Shown piece by piece: positions 47,683-58,251 of a stretch of DNA of 64,000 bases. The stretch comes from Gammaproteobacteria bacterium (GTDB lineage: Bacteria; Pseudomonadota; Gammaproteobacteria; GCA-002705445; GCA-002716945). The DNA lies in NCBI GenBank assembly GCA_018667355.1, contig JABIVC010000013.1, forward strand, positions 74,305 through 138,304, given 5' to 3'. Every line of letters starts with the position of its first letter. Position 1 is the first letter of the stretch. The notes beneath the pieces were generated by a model that saw nothing but the letters and a program-made list of their open reading frames with translations, was not told the origin of the DNA and did not search any database. The position numbers and the translations under genes were made by a program.

Positions 47683-49602
47683 ATGATTTCTTATATAGGA
47701 TCTTTTTTAATATTAATAGCGCTTTTAAATGCAAGTTTATTAGTTCTTGCCAGACCTATATTTTCTAAGATATCAAAAGATTATGACTCGTTAATTTTAT
47801 CTACGTCTAAGCTCCAGTTCCCATTAGTTTTAATTGCTTTCATATGCCTCATCGCTTCATTTGTAAATGATGATTTTTCATTGAGATATATTTCATCTAA
47901 TTCTAATTCGGCATTACCATTCTTCTATAAAATATCAGCTACTTGGGCAGGGCACGAAGGGTCTATGCTCTTATGGTGTCTTATCCTGAGTTTTTGGACA
48001 TTTATGGCAAGCATATATAGCAAATCATTAAACATTGAATTTAGAACAAAATTTCTATCAATTATGGGTTTTTTAAATTTAGGTTTCTTGCTTTTTTTAG
48101 TATTTACATCAAATCCTTTTGAAAAAAATATCTCTATTCCAATTGACGGCAAGGATCTGAATCCTTTGTTGCAAGATTTCGGATTAATTGTGCATCCACC
48201 AATGCTTTATATGGGATATGTAGGATTATCTGTTGTTTTTAGTTTCGCCGTAACTTGTCTTCTACAGAATGATTTCAAAAGAGAATGGGCTAGATGGGTT
48301 AGGCCCTGGGCATTAATATCATGGAGTTTCCTTACATTAGGAATAGCCCTGGGGAGCTGGTGGGCTTACTATGAATTAGGTTGGGGTGGATGGTGGTTTT
48401 GGGACCCCGTAGAGAATGCATCATTTATGCCATGGCTTGTAACTACAGCTTTAATTCACTCATTAATAACATGCGAACAGAAAGCAATGTTTAAAAATTG
48501 GACGATTCTACTCTCAATTATAGCTTTCTCGTTAAGCTTGTTAGGAACATTCTTAGTGAGATCGGGTATTCTTATTTCAGTACATTCTTTTGCAAACGAC
48601 CCTGCGCGTGGTGCTTTTATATTATTATTCTTAACTATAATTGTTGGAGGCTCACTTCTGATTTATTTTAAAAATGCACCTAAAATTCAAGATAATATCT
48701 CTTTTGATTTTTTTTCTAGAGAAAGTTTCTTTCTAATAAATAATATTTTGCTTGTAACTGCAACATTTACAATATTATTAGGAACTATATATCCTTTGCT
48801 TTTAGATTTATTAGGGCTTGAAAAGATATCTGTTGGTGTTCCGTACTATAATGCTGTATTTCTTCCAATTATGACACCATTAGTCCTCCTTGCAGGATAC
48901 ATCCCTATAATGTTTTCCTCAAAGAGTAAGAATAAAAAATATATGATTTCCCATTTATTGCTAAGCTTTCTAATCGTAATACTTTTTACTTTATTCAGTA
49001 TATATTTTTTAGATAACTATAATATAAGTATACTCCTCGGTATTTTTATATTTATATGGATATCATTCAATATAATATACGATTTAATTATGAAGATTTA
49101 TTTTTCTAATATAAAGAAAATATCCTTTTCAAATATAGGAATGATGTTTGCTCACTTAGGATTAGCTGTTTTTATCTTAGGAGCAACGATTGTTGAGAAT
49201 AATAAAGTTGAAAAGGAAGTTGTTATAAAAATTGGAGATACAATACAAGTTAAAGACTATACTTTTGAGTTTAAAAACATCAGTGAATATGAAGGTCCTA
49301 ATTATCAAGGAATTATGGCTAAGTTTTTAGTCTATGAAAATAATAATTTATTAACAGAGCTTTATCCAGAAAAAAGAATATATGCATCTAATAATATGCC
49401 AATGACAGAAGCTGGTATAGATCCAGGACTTAGTAGAGATTTGTATATAACATTAGGTACTCTTATCAATGATGATGTATGGTCTGTGAGAATATATCAT
49501 AAACCTCTTATTAGGCTTATATGGTTAGGAGCCCTAATGATGGTATTTGGTGGAATCCTCAGTGTTCTCTATAAGAGAAAGAATCTTGCCTTTTCGAGAT
49601 GA
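47683..49602 (+). CDS. ccmF: cytochrome c-type biogenesis protein CcmF
   Basis: 639-aa polytopic protein with the WWFWDPVENAS WWD-domain motif. Confidence 0.88.
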   Translation: MISYIGSFLILIALLNASLLVLARPIFSKISKDYDSLILSTSKLQFPLVLIAFICLIASFVNDDFSLRYISSNSNSALPFFYKISATWAGHEGSMLLWCLILSFWTFMASIYSKSLNIEFRTKFLSIMGFLNLGFLLFLVFTSNPFEKNISIPIDGKDLNPLLQDFGLIVHPPMLYMGYVGLSVVFSFAVTCLLQNDFKREWARWVRPWALISWSFLTLGIALGSWWAYYELGWGGWWFWDPVENASFMPWLVTTALIHSLITCEQKAMFKNWTILLSIIAFSLSLLGTFLVRSGILISVHSFANDPARGAFILLFLTIIVGGSLLIYFKNAPKIQDNISFDFFSRESFFLINNILLVTATFTILLGTIYPLLLDLLGLEKISVGVPYYNAVFLPIMTPLVLLAGYIPIMFSSKSKNKKYMISHLLLSFLIVILFTLFSIYFLDNYNISILLGIFIFIWISFNIIYDLIMKIYFSNIKKISFSNIGMMFAHLGLAVFILGATIVENNKVEKEVVIKIGDTIQVKDYTFEFKNISEYEGPNYQGIMAKFLVYENNNLLTELYPEKRIYASNNMPMTEAGIDPGLSRDLYITLGTLINDDVWSVRIYHKPLIRLIWLGALMMVFGGILSVLYKRKNLAFSR

Positions 49603-49606
49603 ATAA

Positions 49607-50131
49607 ATGAATATTAAAATCTCATCAGTTATTTTTATTATATTTATAATGATTCTTTTTTTTGGCTTATTTGTAGATACAAGAGTTATACGGTCACCAT
49701 TAATTGGGAAAAAATTACCCAACTATGAATTAATTGAATTAAACACTGGGTATAAAACAGATATATCTATGTTGCCAGGTGAAACACTTTTATTAAATGT
49801 ATGGGCTAGCTGGTGTTTGGAGTGCATCAGAGAACATCGTGTATTAATGGACATATCTAAAGATCAAAAAATAAGTATAATTGGCGTGAATTATAAAGAT
49901 GAGAAAAATGATGCAATTGGATGGTTAGAAATCTATGGAAACCCATATATTTATAATATATATGATTATGCGGGTCAGCTTGGTTTAGATTTAGGTGTAT
50001 ATGGAGTACCTGAAACATTTTTAGTAGATAAAAATAGAGTGATTAGAGCAAAATATATCGGAGCTATCACAATTGAAATTTATAAGGAAGAAATATTACC
50101 AATGATTGAGAAGATAAATGAAAATATTTAA
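49607..50131 (+). CDS. ccmG: thiol:disulfide interchange protein CcmG/DsbE
   Basis: WASWCLEC (CxxC) and a TM anchor. Confidence 0.8.
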   Translation: MNIKISSVIFIIFIMILFFGLFVDTRVIRSPLIGKKLPNYELIELNTGYKTDISMLPGETLLLNVWASWCLECIREHRVLMDISKDQKISIIGVNYKDEKNDAIGWLEIYGNPYIYNIYDYAGQLGLDLGVYGVPETFLVDKNRVIRAKYIGAITIEIYKEEILPMIEKINENI

Positions 50132-50492
50132 ATATTTTATGAATCTTGCAATACTTTTATGTCTTGTTCAATCCATGACGTTTGCTGATATAAAAAATAA
50201 TGATATTTTATATAATCAGTTAATAACGGAAATAAGATGTATGGTTTGTCAAAATCAGAATATTGCTGAGTCAGAAGCTCCATTAGCAATTGATTTAAGA
50301 AATAAAGTAAGAGAGATGATAGATGAGGGAAAGGACAAAGATTATATTAAAAAATATCTATCTGAGAGATACAGTGATTTTATATTATATGACCCTCCAT
50401 TCTCACCAAGAAATTTAATATTATGGATTGGCCCATTCTTGTTCTTGATAATTATAAGCTTTTATTTTTTTCGGAAAAGTTTAAAAAGATGA
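50118..50492 (+). CDS. ccmH: cytochrome c-type biogenesis protein CcmH
   Basis: IRCMVCQNQ (LRCxxC) motif. Confidence 0.7.
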   Translation: MKIFKYFMNLAILLCLVQSMTFADIKNNDILYNQLITEIRCMVCQNQNIAESEAPLAIDLRNKVREMIDEGKDKDYIKKYLSERYSDFILYDPPFSPRNLILWIGPFLFLIIISFYFFRKSLKR

Positions 50493-51451
50493 TTTACTTA
50501 ACTCTAATATTTATATCTATAATATATTTTTTACTATTATATAAAAACTATGGTGAAAGCCTAAGATTAAAAAAAAATAGTATTAATATGAATATAATAT
50601 TCATTATTCTATTTTTTGGCATAGTAGGACTTTTTTTCAAAGACTCAGGGATATTAAATAAAAAGGGATATGATGAGATATTAGAAAAACATCAACAAAT
50701 TCGAAATAATATAGTTACCATTAAAGAGAATATACCTATACTTAGAGCAAAACTAATTGAAGAGCCTGAATATTATGAAGGTTGGGTTATGTTAGCAAAA
50801 TCTTATATAATTACAGATGATCTTTTATCATCTATAGACTCTTATGAGATGGCCATGTCGATAAATACAGATGACAATTCTGTTTTAATAGAGTACATAG
50901 ATATTTTAAGAAAAATTGACCCTAAGTCGAATAAGACTAAAATAATTAAAAGTTTTGATAAACTGATTTCATCAAATCCATCTGATATTGGTATTTATAA
51001 TATGAAGTTAAACTATTCTGTCGAAATTAATGATTCTAATCTGACCAAGAATATCTTACAAGATATTATAAACGATAAATCAATTATAAATAAAGATGCA
51101 TATATTCAGGCATTAAATAAACTAAATTTATCAGCAAATAAATTCTCTTTTGAAATAACACTTTCTGACAAGATATTTAATGACTTAAGATCATCATCAT
51201 ATATTTATTTTATTTTAAGAGATAAAATTATAGGGCCACCTTTTGCTGTAAAAAGAATTCAAAATATTAACTTAGGTAAGAAAATAACTCTAACATCCCA
51301 AGATAAGATGATCAGAGAATTAGAGCCCCCTGAAAATATTATATTAGAGATTAAAGGGAGTCAGAATAACGTTGTAGATGATAATATGGTGGAGCTTCAT
51401 AAGTCTAAAATATTAGACTTTCATTCTAGTGTCTATTATGAAATTGATTAG
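50489..51451 (+). CDS. ccmI: cytochrome c-type biogenesis protein CcmI-like (TM plus TPR-like)
   Basis: Position after ccmH with an ATGA start/stop overlap; N-terminal TM helix. Weak sequence signal. Confidence 0.45.
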   Translation: MIYLTLIFISIIYFLLLYKNYGESLRLKKNSINMNIIFIILFFGIVGLFFKDSGILNKKGYDEILEKHQQIRNNIVTIKENIPILRAKLIEEPEYYEGWVMLAKSYIITDDLLSSIDSYEMAMSINTDDNSVLIEYIDILRKIDPKSNKTKIIKSFDKLISSNPSDIGIYNMKLNYSVEINDSNLTKNILQDIINDKSIINKDAYIQALNKLNLSANKFSFEITLSDKIFNDLRSSSYIYFILRDKIIGPPFAVKRIQNINLGKKITLTSQDKMIRELEPPENIILEIKGSQNNVVDDNMVELHKSKILDFHSSVYYEID

Positions 51452-52146
51452 TAAGTAATTCTATCATCAAAAACAAAGCAGTCACCCTCCCATCTACCCT
51501 TATCTTTATTTTTATCTAAATAATTAATTATACCTCCTTTAAGCTGAAAAACATTTTTAAAGCCTAATTTATCTAAAGCTATACTGGCTTTTTCACATCT
51601 AATTCCACCCGTGCAAAATATAGCAATATCTTTTTCTTTATCTAAGTCTTTAGCCTCTTTGAGTGACTTATTCAAATCACTAAAATTTAAAAGATCCAGA
51701 CTTTTTGAATTTTTAAAAGTACCCATTAAATATTCAAATCTATTTCTCATATCAATTATAATAGGTTCACGCCCTAGCAGTTTGTCCCAATCATCTGGCT
51801 CTAACGATTTATTCTTAAATACTTTTTCTTCAGTAGCAGAAAATCCTGCCTTTATGATCTCATCTTTTACTTTTACTTTTAGTTTTGTAAATACTTTTTC
51901 CTTAATCATCGATTCATTAAAATGTATATTTCCTAAATCTAATAACCCAATGATATAGCTTTTGACTAGTTCTATATTTTTAGATGACCCACACATATTT
52001 GCATTAATACCCTCATTAGCAATAAGCACTGTTCCTAATATATTTAACTCTTTCAAATAATTAAATATGTCAAATCTGATTCTATCGGTATCATTAATTT
52101 TTATAAATTTATAAAAACTAACCACTCTATCTATTTTTTCATGCAT
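51448..52146 (-). CDS. trhO: tRNA uridine(34) hydroxylase TrhO (YceA/UPF0176, rhodanese-like)
   Basis: YceA-type architecture: an N-terminal region then a rhodanese domain with FCTGGIRCEKAS. Confidence 0.75.
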   Translation of the reverse strand: MHEKIDRVVSFYKFIKINDTDRIRFDIFNYLKELNILGTVLIANEGINANMCGSSKNIELVKSYIIGLLDLGNIHFNESMIKEKVFTKLKVKVKDEIIKAGFSATEEKVFKNKSLEPDDWDKLLGREPIIIDMRNRFEYLMGTFKNSKSLDLLNFSDLNKSLKEAKDLDKEKDIAIFCTGGIRCEKASIALDKLGFKNVFQLKGGIINYLDKNKDKGRWEGDCFVFDDRITY

Positions 52147-52799
52147 AATGTCATCCCATCATAAATTGTTATAAGACAATGACTCACTCTTTGGTCTTTA
52201 GATATAAAGCTATTAAGCGATTTGATAGATTTAGTGCTAGAGGAATTGTCATCTTTGTCTAAAACCTTCCCTTTCCAAATTGTATTATCTATAATAATTA
52301 TTCCACCCGACCTAACTAGCTTAAGAGATTTTTCATAATAGTCTAAATATCTACTTTTGTCAGCATCTATGAACACAAAATCAAATGAATTCTCATGGTT
52401 ATTCGTAATAAAACCATTTAGGGTGTCAATTGCATTACCTAATATCAGCTCAATTTTATTAGTAAGATTAGCTTTATCCCAATATTTCTTTGCGATATCC
52501 GTAAACTCTTTAGATTTTTCTAAAGCAAATAATTTTCCGTTTTCAGGCATAGCACTTGCAATACAAATAGAACTATACCCAGTAAAAACTCCTATTTCAA
52601 TACACCTAGTAAATTTACCTAGCTTAATAATCATCTCTATCAATGCACCTTGCGTTGCTCCAATTTGCATTATTGAGACATCACCAAGTTTTGCCGTTTC
52701 GTCACGGAGCTCTTTTAGAATGTTTGATTCTTTATAACCAATTGAATCTATATACTTACATAACTGATTTGGGTCTAGCTGAGTATCTTTGTTTTTCAT
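52131..52799 (-). CDS. class I SAM-dependent O-methyltransferase (family 3, caffeoyl-CoA OMT / TrmR(YrrM)-like)
   Basis: 222 aa; IEIGVFTGYSSICIA SAM motif. Overlaps trhO by 16 nt. Confidence 0.7.
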   Translation of the reverse strand: MKNKDTQLDPNQLCKYIDSIGYKESNILKELRDETAKLGDVSIMQIGATQGALIEMIIKLGKFTRCIEIGVFTGYSSICIASAMPENGKLFALEKSKEFTDIAKKYWDKANLTNKIELILGNAIDTLNGFITNNHENSFDFVFIDADKSRYLDYYEKSLKLVRSGGIIIIDNTIWKGKVLDKDDNSSSTKSIKSLNSFISKDQRVSHCLITIYDGMTLCMKK

Positions 52800-53384
52800 C
52801 TATTGTTTAATTGCTTCAAACTCAATGATTAAATCTATTTGGTTGCCAACACCATTCTCTCCAACGGCATAATCCATCCCAAAGTCTGAACGGTTAAAAC
52901 TTGCTGTTGCAGATACACCCATGACTATTGGCTTAGTAAAACCAAAAGGATATTCTTTGATTTTATTGACAGTGGTATTTAAAATAATTTCTCTCGATAT
53001 ACCTAGCAATGTTAATCTACCTGTAATTTTACCAGGATTTTTATTCAGATCATTATGCTTCGCTTTAAAAGTCATTACAGGAAAACGCTCTACATCAAGA
53101 AAATCTGGACTTCTTAAATGTGCATCTCTTTTTTCATGATTGGTAAATACACTGGATGTATCAATAAAAATTTCTACATTAGAAAGTAATTTCTTATCTT
53201 GATCATAAATAAATGAACCATTGACTTTTTTGAACATACCAAGTGTTTTTGCATAACCAGCATGTTCTACCAAAAAACCTAAGCTAAAATGAGACTCATC
53301 AATCACATAATCGGCATCTTTAGCAATCACTAGTTGTGTGAAACAAATACCTATAATAAAACTTAATGCTCTATATATATTCAT
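52800..53384 (-). CDS. yceI: YceI-family periplasmic (polyisoprenoid-binding) protein
   Basis: Signal peptide plus YceI-like lipocalin-type core (FSLGFLVEH, TLLGIS). Confidence 0.75.
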   Translation of the reverse strand: MNIYRALSFIIGICFTQLVIAKDADYVIDESHFSLGFLVEHAGYAKTLGMFKKVNGSFIYDQDKKLLSNVEIFIDTSSVFTNHEKRDAHLRSPDFLDVERFPVMTFKAKHNDLNKNPGKITGRLTLLGISREIILNTTVNKIKEYPFGFTKPIVMGVSATASFNRSDFGMDYAVGENGVGNQIDLIIEFEAIKQ

Positions 53385-54099
53385 CTTCTTTTCTCATATA
53401 TAACCAAAGTATATCCTTTGCAAAAGAAAAAGTAATGACAAATAATGATATCATTACAAAAAAAACCAATAAAGTATCTTTTACATATTGACTATGACAA
53501 AATATAAGTATGAATGTTGATAATACACAGCTAAGCTTTCTATAATAACTCCTAGGAAGTTTTCGTTTCATCCATTTATATTTCATCATAAATACTAGGA
53601 ATATATATCTATAAAAGGGTATCAAAAAAACTATAACACTTGTGTCTTTATTCAAGTATAAAGAAGTACAAAGAGTTAGGATTAACAAAGTATCAGCATC
53701 TTGATCAAAAACCTCTCCAAAATTACATTGTTCATTGAATCTCCTGGCCAGATACCCATCTATACCATCAAGACATAGAGCTATCAAAGCTAATATGGCA
53801 AAATAGTCCTCGAGATAGAATTTATTAAAAATATTTTGATCTGTTAGAGCATTAAATGATATAGATAAGAGAATTATTGATATCACTATCCTCAAGTAAG
53901 TTATGAAAGATGCATATGCAAATATATTTTCTTTAAAGTAATTAAATATATAAAATATAAGAATTGAAATAATTAAAAATATTACTGTATTTTGTAGTAC
54001 TATTAACAGTGTTAGGTCATTATATAAAATAACACCAAGCAATGTTATTAGGGCTAGATATGCTTTCAAAGTAGTTTTTAGTACGAATACATTAATCAT
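53371..54099 (-). CDS. CDP-alcohol phosphatidyltransferase family membrane protein
   Basis: DGIDGYLARR...G...DQDADTL matches the D-G-x2-A-R-x8-G-x3-D-x3-D signature; polytopic. Confidence 0.7.
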   Translation of the reverse strand: MINVFVLKTTLKAYLALITLLGVILYNDLTLLIVLQNTVIFLIISILIFYIFNYFKENIFAYASFITYLRIVISIILLSISFNALTDQNIFNKFYLEDYFAILALIALCLDGIDGYLARRFNEQCNFGEVFDQDADTLLILTLCTSLYLNKDTSVIVFLIPFYRYIFLVFMMKYKWMKRKLPRSYYRKLSCVLSTFILIFCHSQYVKDTLLVFFVMISLFVITFSFAKDILWLYMRKEDEYI

Positions 54100-54119
54100 A
54101 AATAATACTTAAGTGTAAT

Positions 54120-55103
54120 ATGAAAAAAATAAACACACAATCATTCTGGATTAAGAAAAAAAATGATAGTTATATTAGAAATCATTCTATTAATATATCT
54201 AACAAAAGTGAACTATTAATTCAGACAATATATAGTGGTATAAGTTATGGAACCGAGAAGATTGTTTATACTGGAGCTGTCCCTGATAGTCAGAAAGAAC
54301 TAATGCGGTGCCCATATCAAGAGGGTAATTTCGGATCAGATGTTAAATATGGATATATGAATATAGGTAAAGTTATTGATGGAATCTCTAATTTCAAAGG
54401 CAAATATGTTTACACACTATTTCCTCATCAAACATTTTATATGTTAAATAAATCTGAGGTTACTTTAATCCCAAAAACAATCCCACTTAAAAGATGCTTG
54501 TTATCAGCTAACATGGAGACTGCAATAAATGGTATGTGGGACACACTACCATCATGTGGTGATAAAATCTTGGTTGTAGGTTCTGGTGTAGTTGGTTTCT
54601 TAATGGCGTATTTATTAAAATCTATACCTGGTTGTGAAATATTACTTGTCGATAGTGATTCAAAAAAAAGTAAATATTCAAAAATCTTTGATATTAATTT
54701 TAAGAATAAAATACCTAATAATTATAAAGCAAATATTATCTATGAGTGTTCAGGCAATGCAAATATCCTAAATAGCCTTAGCAAGCATGTAAAAGAAGAA
54801 GCTACTATTTGCATATTAAGCTGGTATGGAAATAATGTTTCTAAAGTGAAATTTGGAGAAGAATTTCTGTCAAAGAGAATTAAACTTATTTTTTCTCAGG
54901 TATCTAAAGTTTCACAAAATAGAAACAAATACTGGGATAATGTACAAAGAAGAGAGTTAGCAATTAGCATGCTAAATGATGATAGATTGGATAATTTGAT
55001 AGAAAGAAAAATGATAAAGTTCAATGAGCTTCCTGTATTTTTTTCTCAGATAAAGAAGGAGCAGGGCTTCTTCTGTAAAGTAGTAGATTATGGAGATAAC
55101 TGA
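54120..55103 (+). CDS. zinc-less medium-chain dehydrogenase/reductase, BchC-like
   Basis: SGISYGTEKIVYTG aligns to the BchC HSGISTGTEKLLWTG motif where zinc-ADHs have CGxCxxDxH. Rossmann VVGSGVVGFLMAYLL. Confidence 0.6.
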   Translation: MKKINTQSFWIKKKNDSYIRNHSINISNKSELLIQTIYSGISYGTEKIVYTGAVPDSQKELMRCPYQEGNFGSDVKYGYMNIGKVIDGISNFKGKYVYTLFPHQTFYMLNKSEVTLIPKTIPLKRCLLSANMETAINGMWDTLPSCGDKILVVGSGVVGFLMAYLLKSIPGCEILLVDSDSKKSKYSKIFDINFKNKIPNNYKANIIYECSGNANILNSLSKHVKEEATICILSWYGNNVSKVKFGEEFLSKRIKLIFSQVSKVSQNRNKYWDNVQRRELAISMLNDDRLDNLIERKMIKFNELPVFFSQIKKEQGFFCKVVDYGDN

Positions 55104-55105
55104 TT

Positions 55106-55504
55106 ATGTATGAAGTGACAGTAAGAGATAACTTGTTTATAGCACATAGTCTGCAAGATGATTTTTTCGGCCCAGCAAAAAATCTTCATGGAGCCACTTA
55201 TGTTATTGATTTAATATTAAGTAGTCGTGAAATGACTGATAAAAATGTTGTTATAGATATAGGGCTTGCATCCAACTTGCTGCACAAGTGCATTGAAGTC
55301 TATAATTATAAAAATTTAGATGACATAGATTCATTATCAGGAGTAATAACAACCACAGAATTTATGGCAAAGAAGCTAACTACTGACTTTATAAGTCTGT
55401 TAGAAAAAGAACAATTTGATATTTCTAGGCTTTATTCGATAAAGATGATTCTAAATGAGTCACATATAGCCTCAGCATCTTATGAACAAATAATTAATGA
55501 ATGA
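55106..55504 (+). CDS. PTPS/QueD-family T-fold protein with degenerate active site
   Basis: FIAHSL...NLHGATY aligns to QueD AAHRL...CGRLHGHSF. Third zinc His is Ala, and no catalytic Cys. Confidence 0.55.
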   Translation: MYEVTVRDNLFIAHSLQDDFFGPAKNLHGATYVIDLILSSREMTDKNVVIDIGLASNLLHKCIEVYNYKNLDDIDSLSGVITTTEFMAKKLTTDFISLLEKEQFDISRLYSIKMILNESHIASASYEQIINE

Positions 55505-56499
55505 GAAAAATCTATTTCATTTATCCTGAATTTGGAAACATTACTACTGGTGGAACACTATACGATTTCTATCTATGTAAATATTTAAAAAAAATATTTA
55601 TTTATCATCAGAGCATAACCGTCAATCATGATATATCAAATATTAAGATTTTTAGGAAAATTAAGAGCATTCCAAAAGATTCTATTATCATAATAGATGG
55701 GTATTTAGCAAATAGGATTAAATATCTTTTGAAAAAATATAATAATATCCATTTACTGGTTCATCACCCTTGTTCTCTAGAGGACCCTGCTGACACTACA
55801 TCCAGTCTTAGATTATTCTTCAATGAAAAAATTGCTTTTACTCATGCACAATCTATTACTACTGTAAGTAAATATATGAAATCAAGAATTAGTAGATATC
55901 TAAATAGAAGTTCTAAGATAAGTGTAGTTTATCCTGGTATTAGAGAGTGCTTCTTTAATTGTAAAACTGATGTTGAATCTATAGACATTCTTTCAATTGG
56001 AAACCTAATCCCAAGGAAAGGATTTGAGTGGTTAGTAGAATCATTAAGTAGATTAAATATTGATTGGCATTTAAACATCATAGGAAGTTATAGCATTGAT
56101 AACAACTATTATGAAAAGGTAACAAATCTAATTAGAAAGCATAAATTAGAGGATAAGATAACTTTTTTAGGAACAGTTGAAAAGAATGTTATGCTAGATT
56201 ATATGCAAAACTCCAAGCTATTTGTTCTTGCGACACATTATGAGGGTTTTGGTATGGCATTGCTTGAGTCTTCTATTTCTGGCCTCAAAGTTATTACTAC
56301 AGATTTACCAGTATTAAGAGAAGTTTTAAGAAATAGGGATGTTGATTTTGTTGAAGAGGATAATATTGACTCTTTAGCAAAATGTATAGAATATAATTTA
56401 AGCCATACTCATTCTTTGCCAATAACTTCTTGTACAGAAAAATATGGATGGAAGAGGGCCGCTAGAAACTTTAAGATGGTGTTATATGGAAAAAGATAA
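55501..56499 (+). CDS. glycosyltransferase family 4 (GT1-fold)
   Basis: HYEGFGMALLESSISGLKVITTD (E-x7-E motif). Confidence 0.75.
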   Translation: MRKIYFIYPEFGNITTGGTLYDFYLCKYLKKIFIYHQSITVNHDISNIKIFRKIKSIPKDSIIIIDGYLANRIKYLLKKYNNIHLLVHHPCSLEDPADTTSSLRLFFNEKIAFTHAQSITTVSKYMKSRISRYLNRSSKISVVYPGIRECFFNCKTDVESIDILSIGNLIPRKGFEWLVESLSRLNIDWHLNIIGSYSIDNNYYEKVTNLIRKHKLEDKITFLGTVEKNVMLDYMQNSKLFVLATHYEGFGMALLESSISGLKVITTDLPVLREVLRNRDVDFVEEDNIDSLAKCIEYNLSHTHSLPITSCTEKYGWKRAARNFKMVLYGKR

Positions 56500-57358
56500 A
56501 TTCTCGTTATCATGGATTAAGATGAGAGAAAAATATGATTTAAAATCTAGAAGTGATCTATTATTAAGGCAGTATAAAAAAGATAATTCATTCTTTAAAA
56601 AAATCATAGATTTAGGTTCTGGTAATGGTTCATTTCTGAGATATTGCCATACTAAGAAAATAATATTTGATGACATGACCCTGATCGATTATGACCCAAA
56701 GCTATTAAGAAACTTTTATACTACAACTTGTAAGTATTTAAAAAACTCTGGTTACAGTCTACTAAAAGAATTACCTACAAAATATAAATTAAAAAAAATG
56801 GATGAGACTAAAACCAGAAATATTAAACTAATCAACAATGATATTTCAAAGTCATTTGATATTATTGATAGTTATAATTTAATTAGTTTATCTGCTATGT
56901 CAGACATATTACCAATATCATTTATTAAAAAACTTTTGAATAATGTGAGTAAAAATAAAATTATATATCTATCAATATGTTTTAGTGGGACTGTTGATTG
57001 GCATATTAAACATAAATATGATAAATATATTGTGTCAATGTTTAATAATCATCAGGAGATGAATAAAGGTTCTGGCTATGCTATTGGTGCCAAGAGCATT
57101 AAGCTTATAAAAGGCCATAGTATTAAGAAACAATATAAGGTATCTATAAAAGATTCATCCTGGAAAATAAACTCTAATACTGAAGATGATAAAACTTTCC
57201 AAAGAATGTATTTAGATACTATATATAGGCCACTAAAAAAAGATGAAAATACTGATAAAGAAATGCTTCTGGATTGGAAAGAGGCGAAACTGAGAGCAAT
57301 TCAATCTGGCAGGTCTAAAATTATTGTAGGACATAAAGATATTTTGATTAAAACATAA
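56444..57358 (+). CDS. class I SAM-dependent methyltransferase
   Basis: IIDLGSGNGSFLRY motif I. The start is probably the internal Met near 56486. Confidence 0.55.
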   Translation: MDGRGPLETLRWCYMEKDKFSLSWIKMREKYDLKSRSDLLLRQYKKDNSFFKKIIDLGSGNGSFLRYCHTKKIIFDDMTLIDYDPKLLRNFYTTTCKYLKNSGYSLLKELPTKYKLKKMDETKTRNIKLINNDISKSFDIIDSYNLISLSAMSDILPISFIKKLLNNVSKNKIIYLSICFSGTVDWHIKHKYDKYIVSMFNNHQEMNKGSGYAIGAKSIKLIKGHSIKKQYKVSIKDSSWKINSNTEDDKTFQRMYLDTIYRPLKKDENTDKEMLLDWKEAKLRAIQSGRSKIIVGHKDILIKT

Positions 57359-58251
57359 TGAGCATCAGAGACGCCTTAAAATATCTTGCCTCTATTATAG
57401 TAATTTATTATATTATTAATGAGTTCGGTATCAATATATCTAATATTCTCTCTATCATTGACCCAAGATATATTTTATTAATTGTATTAGTAAGTATTTT
57501 TCAGCATATACTGTCAGCATACAGATGGATGTATATTTCTAAGGTAACTAATCTAAATATTAGCTTTAGCCATTCTATTCAATTTTATTATATTTCTACT
57601 TTCATGAATAATATTCTTCCTGGTGGAATAATGGGGGATATATTTCGTATATACTATACTTCTGAAAAGAAAAATGAAATACTCAAAATGGGTAAGTCAA
57701 TGCAGTCTGTTATTTTTGAGAGATTATCAGGCCAAATCATGTTACTTGCTTTCTTTGTTGTATCTTTAACTATATATTTTCTTATTAACCAAAAATATGA
57801 AGCTTTTCTCTACTTATTCTTTCCTTCAATATCAATATTCATTTTATTCAAATATTTTCTTAACCAAAAAATTAAAAAAATATTAGGTAAAAAACAAATT
57901 AGCCAAAATCTTTATATGGTTTTTACAGGGGAAATATTTTGGAGACATCTAACTCTCTCTTTTTTTGTTGTATGCTCTTATATACTCATATATATCATTT
58001 CAGCAGTTTCATTAGGTCTAAATATTGATTATCTTTCATTTTTAGTATTTTCTCCAATAATTCTTTTTTCAATGACTTTACCTATTAGTGTCGGGGGGTG
58101 GGGTATTAGAGAATTAACAGCACTTCTTTTATCTCTACTCTTGGGGCTTTCAGCTTCTGCAAGCATTAGTGTTTCAATTATTTATGGGATACTAAATTTA
58201 TTATGTTCGCTACCTGGGTTATATTTTTTCATGAAAATCAAATTAAATTAA
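57358..58251 (+). CDS. UPF0104 / lysylphosphatidylglycerol-synthase-TM-type (flippase-like) membrane protein
   Basis: Polytopic; NNILPGGIMGDIFRIYY motif. Its ATG overlaps the methyltransferase stop (ATAATG). Confidence 0.55.
   Translation: MSIRDALKYLASIIVIYYIINEFGINISNILSIIDPRYILLIVLVSIFQHILSAYRWMYISKVTNLNISFSHSIQFYYISTFMNNILPGGIMGDIFRIYYTSEKKNEILKMGKSMQSVIFERLSGQIMLLAFFVVSLTIYFLINQKYEAFLYLFFPSISIFILFKYFLNQKIKKILGKKQISQNLYMVFTGEIFWRHLTLSFFVVCSYILIYIISAVSLGLNIDYLSFLVFSPIILFSMTLPISVGGWGIRELTALLLSLLLGLSASASISVSIIYGILNLLCSLPGLYFFMKIKLN

What the first reader, a model, noticed from the sequence alone, without database searches (positions are those of the whole stretch)
51448..52799. trhO overlapped by a TrmR-like O-methyltransferase: predicted Bacillus-type mo5U34 tRNA modification route
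TrhO (YceA) makes 5-hydroxyuridine at tRNA wobble position 34. In E. coli ho5U becomes cmo5U via CmoA/CmoB. In Bacillus an O-methyltransferase of the caffeoyl-CoA-OMT family (TrmR/YrrM) makes mo5U. Here a family-3 OMT sits immediately upstream of trhO in the same operon with a 16-nt overlap. That implies functional coupling and an mo5U pathway in a Gram-negative.
Basis: inference. Interest (0 to 1): 0.5.

Follow-up and report, generated by a model that had tools for sequence, protein, structure and literature searches.

The report
TrhO paired with non-TrmR O-methyltransferase
A marine gammaproteobacterium has the tRNA wobble-uridine hydroxylase gene trhO overlapping a caffeoyl-CoA-type O-methyltransferase gene that is not a Bacillus TrmR orthologue, and the pair plausibly makes 5-methoxyuridine in tRNA, an idea that published comparative genomics already hints at and that nobody has tested.

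Summary
On the minus strand, a 222-aa Methyltransf_3 O-methyltransferase (52131-52799) overlaps by 16 nt a 232-aa short-form TrhO (51448-52146), which has the CTGGIR catalytic loop.

The overlap itself says little. In this 94%-coding, ~28% GC window, 39% of same-strand gene pairs overlap.

The OMT is not a TrmR orthologue:
- It groups with SafC, SynOMT, plant CCoAOMT and the Legionella and Coxiella OMTs (E 1e-39 to 1e-51). B. subtilis TrmR scores only 4e-11.
- It lacks TrmR's signature Arg86, Arg90 and Arg178.

A TrhO link is still supported:
- TrhO is the most recurrent neighbour of this OMT clade in 80 species (5 loci, about 3 lineages, about 0.16 expected by chance).
- Real TrhO-OMT fusion proteins, one from an oomycete, carry OMT domains of this clade rather than the TrmR clade.
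- In a published table, gammaproteobacteria that have a hydroxylase but lack CmoAB are enriched for such OMTs.

Sakai et al. 2019 already used yceA-trmR fusions and listed Gram-negatives with this profile.

The presence or absence of cmoA/cmoB in this genome could not be tested.

Verdict: a plausible (~50%) mo5U route that uses a paralogous OMT. Novelty is modest.

The parts
52131..52799 (-). Class I cation-dependent O-methyltransferase, 222 aa, of the PF01596 / caffeoyl-CoA-OMT-like clade. It is the candidate ho5U34 O-methyltransferase.
   Evidence: Pfam Methyltransf_3, E 1.4e-68. The best solved relatives are 5lhm SafC at 1e-51, 3r3h from Legionella at 8e-50 and 3tr6 from Coxiella at 8.5e-46; TrmR 5zw3 scores only 4.4e-11. 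An identical protein, P0001, is named 'MAG Gammaproteobacteria bacterium'.
52356..52370 (-). OMT motif I-D-A-D-K, residues 144-148. D145 is a metal ligand and K148 is the catalytic base. This is the CCoAOMT-type 'DADK', not the TrmR-type 'DAAK'.
   Evidence: The motif is invariant in alignment A1 and in all 86 clade members. The TrmR group has A at the position of D147. The coordinates were read.
52284..52289 (-). OMT D171-N172, the remaining two ligands of the divalent-metal triad.
   Evidence: They are invariant in the clade and align to TrmR D159/N160, which coordinate Mg2+ in TrmR.
51448..52146 (-). trhO (yceA family), 232 aa. It is the short form without the Rhodanese_C tail and is an O2-dependent tRNA U34 5-hydroxylase.
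   Evidence: NCBIfam NF001133 at 233.6 bits, cut-off 170. Pfam UPF0176_N plus Rhodanese. Legionella Lpg2838 (4f67) scores 4e-49. It is 34% identical to E. coli TrhO.
51598..51615 (-). TrhO active-site loop C178-T-G-G-I-R183, the CXGGXR motif.
   Evidence: It aligns to E. coli C200-R205, where C200, T201, G203 and R205 are essential. It is invariant in alignments A2 and A3.
52131..52146 (-). The 16-nt overlap between the OMT 3' end and the trhO 5' end.
   Evidence: The overlap is conserved in relatives. Overlaps are the norm in this window.
52800..53384 (-). YceI-family periplasmic protein, 194 aa, with a signal peptide. It lies directly upstream of the OMT with a 0-nt gap and on the same strand.
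   Evidence: Pfam YceI, E 2.4e-37. It is adjacent to the OMT only in the organism's own lineage. In E. coli, yceI is the convergent neighbour of trhO.
53371..54099 (-). CDP-alcohol phosphatidyltransferase, 242 aa. It is the first gene of the co-directional four-gene string and overlaps yceI by 14 nt.
   Evidence: Pfam PF01066, E 6.3e-16. No terminator-like site was found on the minus strand within the string.

Best explanation
The two genes probably form a two-step wobble-uridine pathway.

Step 1: TrhO uses O2 and its rhodanese CTGGIR cysteine loop to hydroxylate U34 of the tRNAs that read NYN family boxes, giving ho5U34. This is inferred from orthology and is strong.

Step 2: the upstream, probably co-transcribed and translationally coupled, Mg2+-dependent SAM O-methyltransferase methylates the 5-hydroxyl to give mo5U34. 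This is inferred from gene context, is moderate, and is not shown. The metal triad D145/D171/N172 would chelate the 4-oxo/5-hydroxy pair of ho5U as it chelates a catechol, and K148 would act as the base.

The enzyme is a paralogue of Bacillus TrmR within PF01596, not an orthologue, and it lacks TrmR's own tRNA-gripping arginines. tRNA recognition would therefore have to come from other surfaces or from TrhO itself, as it would in the natural TrhO-OMT fusion proteins.
For: TrhO identity:
- The NCBIfam equivalog is above its cut-off, the CXGGXR loop is present, and the basic strand residues K92/K94 align to E. coli K112/R114.

OMT competence:
- The SAM motif, the D-D-N metal triad and the catalytic Lys are all intact.

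Gene neighbourhood:
- Among 80 species-level loci holding OMT homologues of 38-64% identity, TrhO is the single most recurrent neighbour family.
- It occurs in 5 loci: L009 in the organism's own lineage; L069, an alphaproteobacterium, on the same strand with a 1-nt gap; and L020, L027 and L028, Nostocales, in convergent orientation. L091 and L159 are further cases.
- Chance predicts about 0.16 such loci, and P(>=3 independent cases) is about 6e-4.

Gene fusions:
- Genuine TrhO>OMT fusion proteins exist: P0325, P0367 and P0321. P0321 is from the oomycete Lagenidium.
- Their OMT domains hit this clade at 104-133 bits, with L069 and L091 as best hits for two of the three. They hit TrmR at only 55-86 bits.
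- Sakai 2019 reports yceA-trmR fusions in Phytophthora and Phaeodactylum.

Phyletic pattern:
- In Sakai's Supplementary Data 2, a PF01596 OMT is present in 6 of 12 gammaproteobacteria that have a hydroxylase but lack CmoB. It is present in 4 of 61 that have CmoB (Fisher p = 8e-4).
- The nearest solved relatives of this OMT come from two of those six, Legionella and Coxiella.

Genome economy:
- The gene is retained in a highly streamlined genome, 94% coding.
Against: - The OMT fails the TrmR ortholog signature. TrmR positions R86, R90 and R178 are K95, F99 and D184 here, K95 is not conserved even in close relatives, and the lid loop is acidic.
- Its closest characterised relatives methylate small catechols: SafC, SynOMT, LiOMT and CCoAOMT.
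- Four clade members sit next to NRPS-like genes, so the clade is functionally mixed.
- The adjacency is absent in 75 of 80 OMT loci, in 79 of 80 trhO loci from metagenomes and in 4 of 4 sampled trhO contigs.
- Within the organism's own lineage the whole 12-kb block is syntenic, so conserved adjacency there is uninformative.
- The overlap is typical of this genome.
- Some TrhO-only Gram-negatives, such as Bartonella, stop at ho5U.
- The 'TrmR' column in Sakai's table is a family-level call and not an orthology call.
- No mo5U has been reported from any organism carrying this OMT clade in the literature searched.
Confidence: 0.5

Rival explanations
1. The OMT is an ordinary small-molecule catechol / hydroxycinnamate-type O-methyltransferase with no role in tRNA. 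It sits next to trhO only because genes are packed tightly and the local gene order has been inherited. TrhO alone would then yield ho5U34 as the final wobble modification, or an unlinked enzyme would finish the job.
For: - Its best-scoring characterised homologues are SafC, SynOMT, LiOMT and plant CCoAOMT.
- It lacks the TrmR arginine signature.
- 94% of OMT-clade loci have no trhO nearby, and some are next to NRPS-like genes.
- 39% of same-strand neighbour pairs in the window overlap.
- The whole 12-kb block is syntenic in relatives.
- ho5U is the terminal modification in Bartonella.
Against: - TrhO is still the top recurrent neighbour, far above chance, in unrelated phyla.
- TrhO-OMT fusions carry OMT domains of this clade.
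- The OMT is anti-correlated with CmoAB in gammaproteobacteria.
- A streamlined oligotroph keeping a phenylpropanoid-type OMT needs explaining.
Confidence: 0.35
2. The OMT works with its upstream neighbours and not with TrhO. It would methylate an envelope-associated substrate linked to the YceI (polyisoprenoid-binding) and CDP-alcohol phosphatidyltransferase genes, or a protein, as was reported for the Anaplasma PF01596 OMT.
For: - The OMT start codon directly follows the yceI stop codon, and the four genes form one co-directional string.
- A PF01596 member from Anaplasma (4oa5) is about as distant from this OMT as it is from TrmR. That it methylates an outer-membrane protein is recalled from memory and was not checked here.
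Against: - YceI and the phosphatidyltransferase are neighbours of the OMT only in the organism's own syntenic lineage, and in none of the other 79 species loci.
- The OMT has no signal peptide, whereas YceI is exported.
- In E. coli, yceI already neighbours trhO without any OMT. This suggests that the yceI-trhO proximity is old synteny and not an OMT-YceI partnership.
Confidence: 0.07

Closest known systems
Bacillus subtilis TrmR (YrrM), tRNA ho5U34 O-methyltransferase (PDB 5ZW3/5ZW4)
   Same: Same Pfam family (PF01596), same Rossmann SAM fold motifs, same Mg2+ triad (D133/D159/N160, aligning to D145/D171/N172) and the same catalytic Lys (K136, aligning to K148). Like TrmR, it is genetically linked to a U34 hydroxylase. 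In Bacillus that is trhP1/trhP2 in the yrrMNO operon; here it is trhO.
   Different: Similarity is remote: phmmer gives 4.4e-11, no better than mammalian COMT. The TrmR-specific tRNA-binding residues R86, R90 and R178 are absent, and the motif is 'DADK' instead of 'DAAK'. TrmR orthologues are reported only in Firmicutes and make up about 3% of PF01596. The partner hydroxylase here is TrhO, not TrhP.
Bacterial CCoAOMT-like cation-dependent OMTs: Myxococcus SafC (5LHM), Synechocystis SynOMT (3CBG), Leptospira LiOMT (2HNK), and the Legionella (3R3H) and Coxiella (3TR6) structural-genomics OMTs
   Same: These are the closest sequences, at 39-41% identity and E 1e-43 to 1e-51. They have the same length, the same motifs and the same acidic lid loop, and they fall in the same clade of the NJ tree.
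   Different: SafC acts on catechols in a natural-product pathway. The Legionella and Coxiella proteins were deposited only as 'O-methyltransferase'. That SynOMT and LiOMT have only in-vitro phenylpropanoid activities is my recollection and was not checked here. None of these is reported to sit next to trhO. Legionella and Coxiella are nevertheless scored TrhO+ and CmoAB-.
TrhO-OMT fusion proteins of oomycetes and diatoms (Sakai et al. 2019; here P0321 from Lagenidium giganteum, plus P0325 and P0367)
   Same: They combine the same two activities, and the OMT domain belongs to the same CCoAOMT-like clade and not the TrmR clade.
   Different: The domain order is TrhO then OMT, in one polypeptide, and the TrhO part has the Rhodanese_C tail. 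Here there are two separate proteins in the order OMT then TrhO, and TrhO is the short form. Identity of the OMT domain to the window OMT is only 26-35%.
E. coli TrhO (YceA) / Legionella Lpg2838 (4F67)
   Same: They share the UPF0176_N plus rhodanese architecture, the CTGGIR loop and the basic beta-strand. Lpg2838 scores E 4e-49, and identity to E. coli TrhO is 34%.
   Different: It lacks the roughly 100-aa C-terminal Rhodanese_C zinc-ribbon-like tail of E. coli TrhO. In E. coli, ho5U goes on to cmo5U/mcmo5U through CmoA, CmoB and CmoM.

Membership tests
TrhO (YceA/UPF0176) tRNA U34 hydroxylase | An N-terminal UPF0176 acylphosphatase-like domain followed by a rhodanese domain, and a score above the curated equivalog cut-off. 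| tested here: met
   PF17773 at 3.6e-24 and PF00581 at 1e-11. NF001133 at 233.6 bits, above the cut-off of 170.
TrhO (YceA/UPF0176) tRNA U34 hydroxylase | The CXGGXR active-site loop, in which C200, T201, G203 and R205 of E. coli TrhO are essential. | tested here: met
   C178-T-G-G-I-R183 aligns to E. coli residues 200-205.
TrhO (YceA/UPF0176) tRNA U34 hydroxylase | The basic beta-strand that the source paper proposes as a tRNA-recognition surface (E. coli K112 and R114, both mutated there). | tested here: met
   K92 and K94 align to K112 and R114. The corresponding lysines are invariant in alignment A2.
TrhO (YceA/UPF0176) tRNA U34 hydroxylase | O2-dependent formation of ho5U34 on tRNA. | not testable with these tools
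   This needs biochemistry or tRNA mass spectrometry.
TrmR (YrrM) ho5U34 O-methyltransferase, ortholog group | Sequence neighbourhood of B. subtilis TrmR. Ryu et al. used more than about 40% identity and E below about 1e-41, and found such neighbours only in Firmicutes. | tested here: not met
   phmmer to 5zw3 gives E 4.4e-11 and 45.9 bits. The TrmR group, 8k1f and the Anaplasma OMT fall outside the clade that holds the window OMT in the NJ tree.
TrmR (YrrM) ho5U34 O-methyltransferase, ortholog group | The TrmR-specific tRNA-backbone-binding arginines R86, R90 and R178 (and R181). | tested here: not met
   The window has K95, F99 and D184 (S187 aligns to R181). The clade consensus at these positions is V/I, then W/F/Y, then an acidic or neutral residue.
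TrmR (YrrM) ho5U34 O-methyltransferase, ortholog group | The Mg2+ triad (D133, D159, N160) and Lys136 near the SAM site. | tested here: met
   D145, D171, N172 and K148 are invariant. These residues are shared by the whole PF01596 family, so they do not discriminate TrmR from its relatives.
TrmR (YrrM) ho5U34 O-methyltransferase, ortholog group | Genetic linkage to a U34 hydroxylase gene. | tested here: met
   It overlaps trhO. The same linkage recurs in other lineages and in fusion proteins. In Bacillus the linked hydroxylase genes are trhP1/trhP2.
TrmR (YrrM) ho5U34 O-methyltransferase, ortholog group | SAM-dependent methylation of ho5U34 in tRNA. | not testable with these tools
   This needs an in-vitro assay on ho5U-tRNA or nucleoside LC-MS.
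Class I cation-dependent OMT (PF01596, caffeoyl-CoA OMT-like / SafC-like clade) | A full-length PF01596 match with closest relatives in this clade. | tested here: met
   PF01596 at 230.7 bits over profile positions 5-204 of 204. The top PDB hits are 5lhm, 3r3h, 3tr6, 3cbg, 2hnk and plant CCoAOMTs.
Class I cation-dependent OMT (PF01596, caffeoyl-CoA OMT-like / SafC-like clade) | The motifs 'GxFTGYS' (SAM binding), 'IDADK' and 'DN' (metal ligands and base). | tested here: met
   G70-V-F-T-G-Y-S76, I144-D-A-D-K148 and D171-N172 are invariant in alignment A1.
Class I cation-dependent OMT (PF01596, caffeoyl-CoA OMT-like / SafC-like clade) | A small-molecule catechol as the physiological substrate. 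| not testable with these tools
   No natural-product or aromatic-catabolism genes flank the OMT here.
CmoA/CmoB cmo5U pathway (as the alternative fate of ho5U) | Presence of cmoA and cmoB in the genome. | tested here: inconclusive
   There is no hit in the 64-kb window or in any fetched locus. The rest of the genome could not be reached.

The most novel reading that the evidence does not exclude
A CCoAOMT-like subfamily of PF01596, distinct from Firmicute TrmR and currently annotated as 'caffeoyl-CoA O-methyltransferase' or 'SAM-dependent methyltransferase', would be the ho5U34 methyltransferase of many Gram-negative bacteria. Those would include marine streamlined gamma- and alphaproteobacteria, Legionella, Coxiella and Nostocales. 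The same would hold for eukaryotes in which the OMT is fused to TrhO. On this reading mo5U is not a Gram-positive speciality. The orphan bacterial enzymes of this clade, such as the Legionella 3R3H and Coxiella 3TR6 proteins, would have tRNA as their real substrate. tRNA recognition would be delegated to TrhO or to surfaces unlike those of TrmR.
Probability: 0.4. Interest if true: 0.6.

Novelty: new variant of a known kind. Interest (0 to 1): 0.4.

Why it matters
If the OMT does methylate ho5U34, the textbook split no longer holds. A 2026 review still describes mo5U made by TrmR as the Gram-positive route and cmo5U made by CmoAB as the Gram-negative one.

A large set of bacterial 'caffeoyl-CoA O-methyltransferase' annotations, some of them in pathogens such as Legionella and Coxiella, would need to be re-annotated.

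It would also predict xo5U-type wobble chemistry in oomycetes and diatoms.

For streamlined marine bacteria it bears on how a small tRNA set reads four-codon boxes.

The hypothesis can be tested directly with nucleoside LC-MS and one recombinant enzyme assay.

If it is false, the locus is simply two unrelated housekeeping genes packed together.

Tried and rejected
- The overlap as evidence of coupling: rejected. Of 51 same-strand pairs in the window, 20 overlap, and even the convergent pair ccmI/trhO overlaps by 4 nt.
- Adjacency in close relatives as evidence: uninformative. The whole 12-kb block is syntenic down to 50-55% protein identity.
- P0121 (477 aa), the top hit of the OMT+TrhO profile search, looked like a bacterial OMT-TrhO fusion. 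I rejected it as a probable artefact. Its 2x-coverage contig also has a split GatB and a frameshifted OMT N-terminus, and removing one T from a T5 run restores a stop codon overlapping an ATG. It still counts as one more same-strand adjacency.
- YceI or CDP-alcohol phosphatidyltransferase as the OMT's real partner: not supported outside the organism's own lineage.
- Residues that distinguish TrhO-adjacent OMTs from non-adjacent ones, and pI differences: none found. TrmR itself is acidic, so pI does not discriminate.
- TrhP (peptidase U32), CmoA or CmoB next to OMT homologues or in the window: none.
- Promoter and terminator scan: not informative in AT-rich DNA, with 31 promoter-like sites against 21 expected. 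No minus-strand terminator was found inside the string.
- Rfam and tRNA scans: only tRNA-Gln(UUG) and tRNA-Met(CAU) are in the window. There is no riboswitch and no xo5U-target tRNA.
- Literature searches for mo5U in Legionella, Coxiella, cyanobacteria or Acinetobacter and for PDB entry 8K1F found nothing relevant. One of these searches was badly designed.
- Whole-genome presence or absence of cmoA/cmoB: could not be done.
Full report
**What is there**

The window is ~28% GC and 94% coding. An identical copy of the OMT is recorded at NCBI as coming from a 'Gammaproteobacteria bacterium' MAG, and its relatives are in Tara Oceans assemblies.

Four co-directional ORFs lie on the minus strand:
- a CDP-alcohol phosphatidyltransferase, 53371-54099
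- a YceI-family exported protein, 52800-53384
- a 222-aa O-methyltransferase, 52131-52799
- a 232-aa TrhO, 51448-52146

Their junctions are a 14-nt overlap, a 0-nt gap and a 16-nt overlap. trhO also overlaps the convergent ccmI-like gene by 4 nt.

TrhO is secure:
- It exceeds the curated cut-off of the NCBIfam TrhO equivalog, at 233.6 against 170 bits.
- It matches Legionella Lpg2838 at 4e-49.
- It carries the CTGGIR loop (C178-R183), whose residues are essential in E. coli TrhO, and the basic strand K92/K94.
- It is a short form that lacks the Rhodanese_C tail.

The trhO start at ATG 52146, and hence the 16-nt overlap, is supported by conservation of the N-terminus and of the overlap in relatives as distant as 50% identity.

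**What the overlap does and does not show**

With ATG-only starts, the window has 51 same-strand neighbour pairs. Twenty of them overlap, 32 have gaps of 10 nt or less, and the median gap is 1 nt.

Tight packing is a property of the genome and does not mark this pair out. It is compatible with co-transcription and translational coupling but does not argue for a shared function. No minus-strand terminator-like site lies inside the string, and promoter-like matches are uninformative in this AT-rich DNA.

**Which methyltransferase it is**

The OMT is a full-length PF01596 protein with the SAM motif, the D145/D171/N172 metal triad and the K148 base all intact.

Against all PDB sequences:
- Its best matches are Myxococcus SafC (1e-51), the Legionella (8e-50) and Coxiella (8.5e-46) structural-genomics OMTs, SynOMT, LiOMT and plant CCoAOMTs (about 1e-39).
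- B. subtilis TrmR scores 4.4e-11, no better than mammalian COMT.
- An entry named 'tRNA 5-hydroxyuridine methyltransferase' (8k1f) scores 7.5e-19.

I recovered the TrmR sequence from the PDB and aligned it with the window OMT. Ryu et al. (PMC6158493) describe R86, R90 and R178 as specific to TrmR orthologues and absent from CCoAOMT. Those positions are K95, F99 and D184 here. K95 is not conserved even in close relatives. The lid loop is acidic, and the motif is 'IDADK' rather than TrmR's 'IDAAK'.

A rough NJ tree, without support values, puts the window OMT in one large star-like clade with SafC, the Legionella and Coxiella OMTs and all 80 homologues retrieved from genomes. TrmR, 8k1f and the Anaplasma OMT fall outside it.

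So the protein is in TrmR's Pfam family but is not a TrmR orthologue.

**Is there nevertheless a link to TrhO?**

(a) Neighbourhood, from the OMT side.
- A scan of one genome per species with an OMT alignment returned 80 loci at 38-64% identity.
- TrhO lies within 6 kb in five of them: L009 in the organism's own lineage; L069, a marine alphaproteobacterium, on the same strand with 1 nt between stop and start; and three Nostocales, tail to tail about 230 nt apart.
- Blind clustering of all neighbours showed TrhO to be the single most recurrent neighbour family. The next is NRPS-like genes, in four loci. YceI and the phosphatidyltransferase recur only in the organism's own lineage.
- Chance predicts about 0.16 loci, and three independent juxtapositions have P of about 6e-4.

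(b) Neighbourhood, from the TrhO side. The adjacency is rare. It was found in 0 of 4 sampled contigs and in 1 of 80 metagenomic trhO loci, which was a cyanobacterial-type locus.

(c) Fusions.
- A profile of concatenated OMT+TrhO pairs gave P0121 as its top hit. I judge that fusion a homopolymer-indel artefact.
- Searching 1.84 billion representative proteins with P0121 recovered genuine TrhO>OMT fusions: P0325, P0367 and P0321. P0321 is from the oomycete Lagenidium giganteum.
- Their OMT domains match the window's clade at 104-133 bits and TrmR at only 55-86 bits. The TrhO-adjacent bacterial OMTs L069 and L091 are the best hits for two of the three.
- The fused domain of P0325 also lacks the TrmR arginines. 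Missing arginines therefore do not exclude a tRNA substrate when TrhO is at hand.

(d) Phyletic pattern.
- In Supplementary Data 2 of Sakai et al., a PF01596 homologue is present in 6 of 12 gammaproteobacteria that have TrhO or TrhP but no CmoB: Legionella, Coxiella, two Acinetobacter, Francisella and Marinomonas.
- It is present in 4 of 61 that have CmoB (Fisher p = 8e-4).
- Two caveats apply. That column is a family-level call taken from InterPro/GTOP, and the species are not phylogenetically independent.

**Mechanism proposed**

TrhO hydroxylates U34 with O2. This is established for the family (PMC6599085). The OMT then transfers a methyl group from SAM to the 5-OH. The Mg2+ triad would bind the 4-oxo/5-hydroxy pair much as it binds a catechol, which is the hypothesis Ryu et al. 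raise for TrmR. K148 would act as the base.

The first step rests on strong orthology. The second is an inference from gene context, and I put it at about 0.5.

The main rival, at about 0.35, is that the OMT is a small-molecule catechol OMT and that ho5U is the end product, as in Bartonella. A role with YceI or the lipid genes is unlikely, at about 0.07.

**What could not be tested**

cmoA and cmoB are absent from the window and from every fetched locus.

**Comparison with what is known, and novelty**

The TrhO then TrmR pathway to mo5U is established in Bacillus. Sakai et al. 2019 explicitly used 'yceA fused with trmR' in Phytophthora and Phaeodactylum to nominate yceA. Their table already lists many Gram-negatives as TrhO+, CmoAB- and 'TrmR'+. 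The general idea is therefore not new.

This analysis adds three points:
- The OMT in question, and the OMT domain of the fusions recovered here (one of them from an oomycete), belong to the CCoAOMT-like clade and not to the TrmR clade.
- They lack TrmR's tRNA-binding signature.
- Operon-like OMT-trhO pairs occur in at least two streamlined marine lineages.

No paper in the searched library reports mo5U from an organism that uses this clade, and a 2026 review still treats mo5U/TrmR as Gram-positive.

I rate it a new variant of a known kind, of moderate interest, and cheaply testable.

Noticed in passing
P0259, P0266, P0376 (proteins); L095:2190-2828; trhO loci L096-L175: TrhO repeatedly associates with thiol-redox proteins. 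There are TrhO-GST fusion proteins in both domain orders, and a GST gene lies directly after trhO in L095. Among 84 trhO loci, a GST-like gene is a neighbour in 6, BolA-like in 6, and two DsbA/thioredoxin-fold families in 4 each. This may bear on the unknown mechanism of the rhodanese-cysteine hydroxylase.
   Followed up: partly
P0193, P0212, P0213, P0217, P0218, P0220, P0223, P0225 (proteins, about 372-399 aa): A family of TrhO proteins is fused to a GNAT acetyltransferase domain (PF00583/PF13508/PF13673). It is widespread in metagenomes; one cluster was seen on 55 contigs.
   Followed up: no
window 52800-53384 and 51448-52146; L089:4808-6477 (E. coli K-12): trhO and yceI are neighbours both in E. 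coli, where b1055 and b1056 are convergent with a 41-nt gap, and in this marine gammaproteobacterium, where the OMT lies between them. L147 also has a yceI gene 2.2 kb from trhO. This is possibly old gammaproteobacterial synteny.
   Followed up: partly
window 53371-58251: A block conserved in relatives: a CDP-alcohol phosphatidyltransferase divergent from a Zn-dehydrogenase-like gene (weak BchC-like match), a 6-pyruvoyl-tetrahydropterin-synthase-like gene, a GT4 glycosyltransferase, an unannotated gene of about 290 aa and an LPG_synthase_TM protein. It looks like an uncharacterised membrane lipid head-group or glycolipid pathway.
   Followed up: no
L091:2700-3400: The apparent bacterial OMT-TrhO fusion P0121 sits on a 2x-coverage long-read contig with a split gatB and a frameshifted OMT N-terminus. 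Deleting one T in a T5 run restores a stop codon overlapping the trhO ATG. This illustrates how overlapping gene pairs can become false fusions in protein databases.
   Followed up: yes
P0329 (441 aa): A tandem double Methyltransf_3 protein (OMT-OMT) appeared among the representatives closest to the OMT domain.
   Followed up: no
window 47683-51451: A cytochrome c maturation cluster, ccmF, ccmG-like, ccmH and ccmI-like, runs up to trhO and overlaps it by 4 nt in convergent orientation. The ccmH/ccmI junction shows a 70-nt ORF overlap, which probably means the ccmI start has been called too far upstream.
   Followed up: no
L029, L063, L070, L082 (OMT homologue loci): Four OMT-clade members from unrelated MAGs or genomes sit next to NRPS-like megasynthase genes. 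In the NJ tree SafC pairs with L070, one of these four. The clade is therefore functionally heterogeneous.
   Followed up: partly
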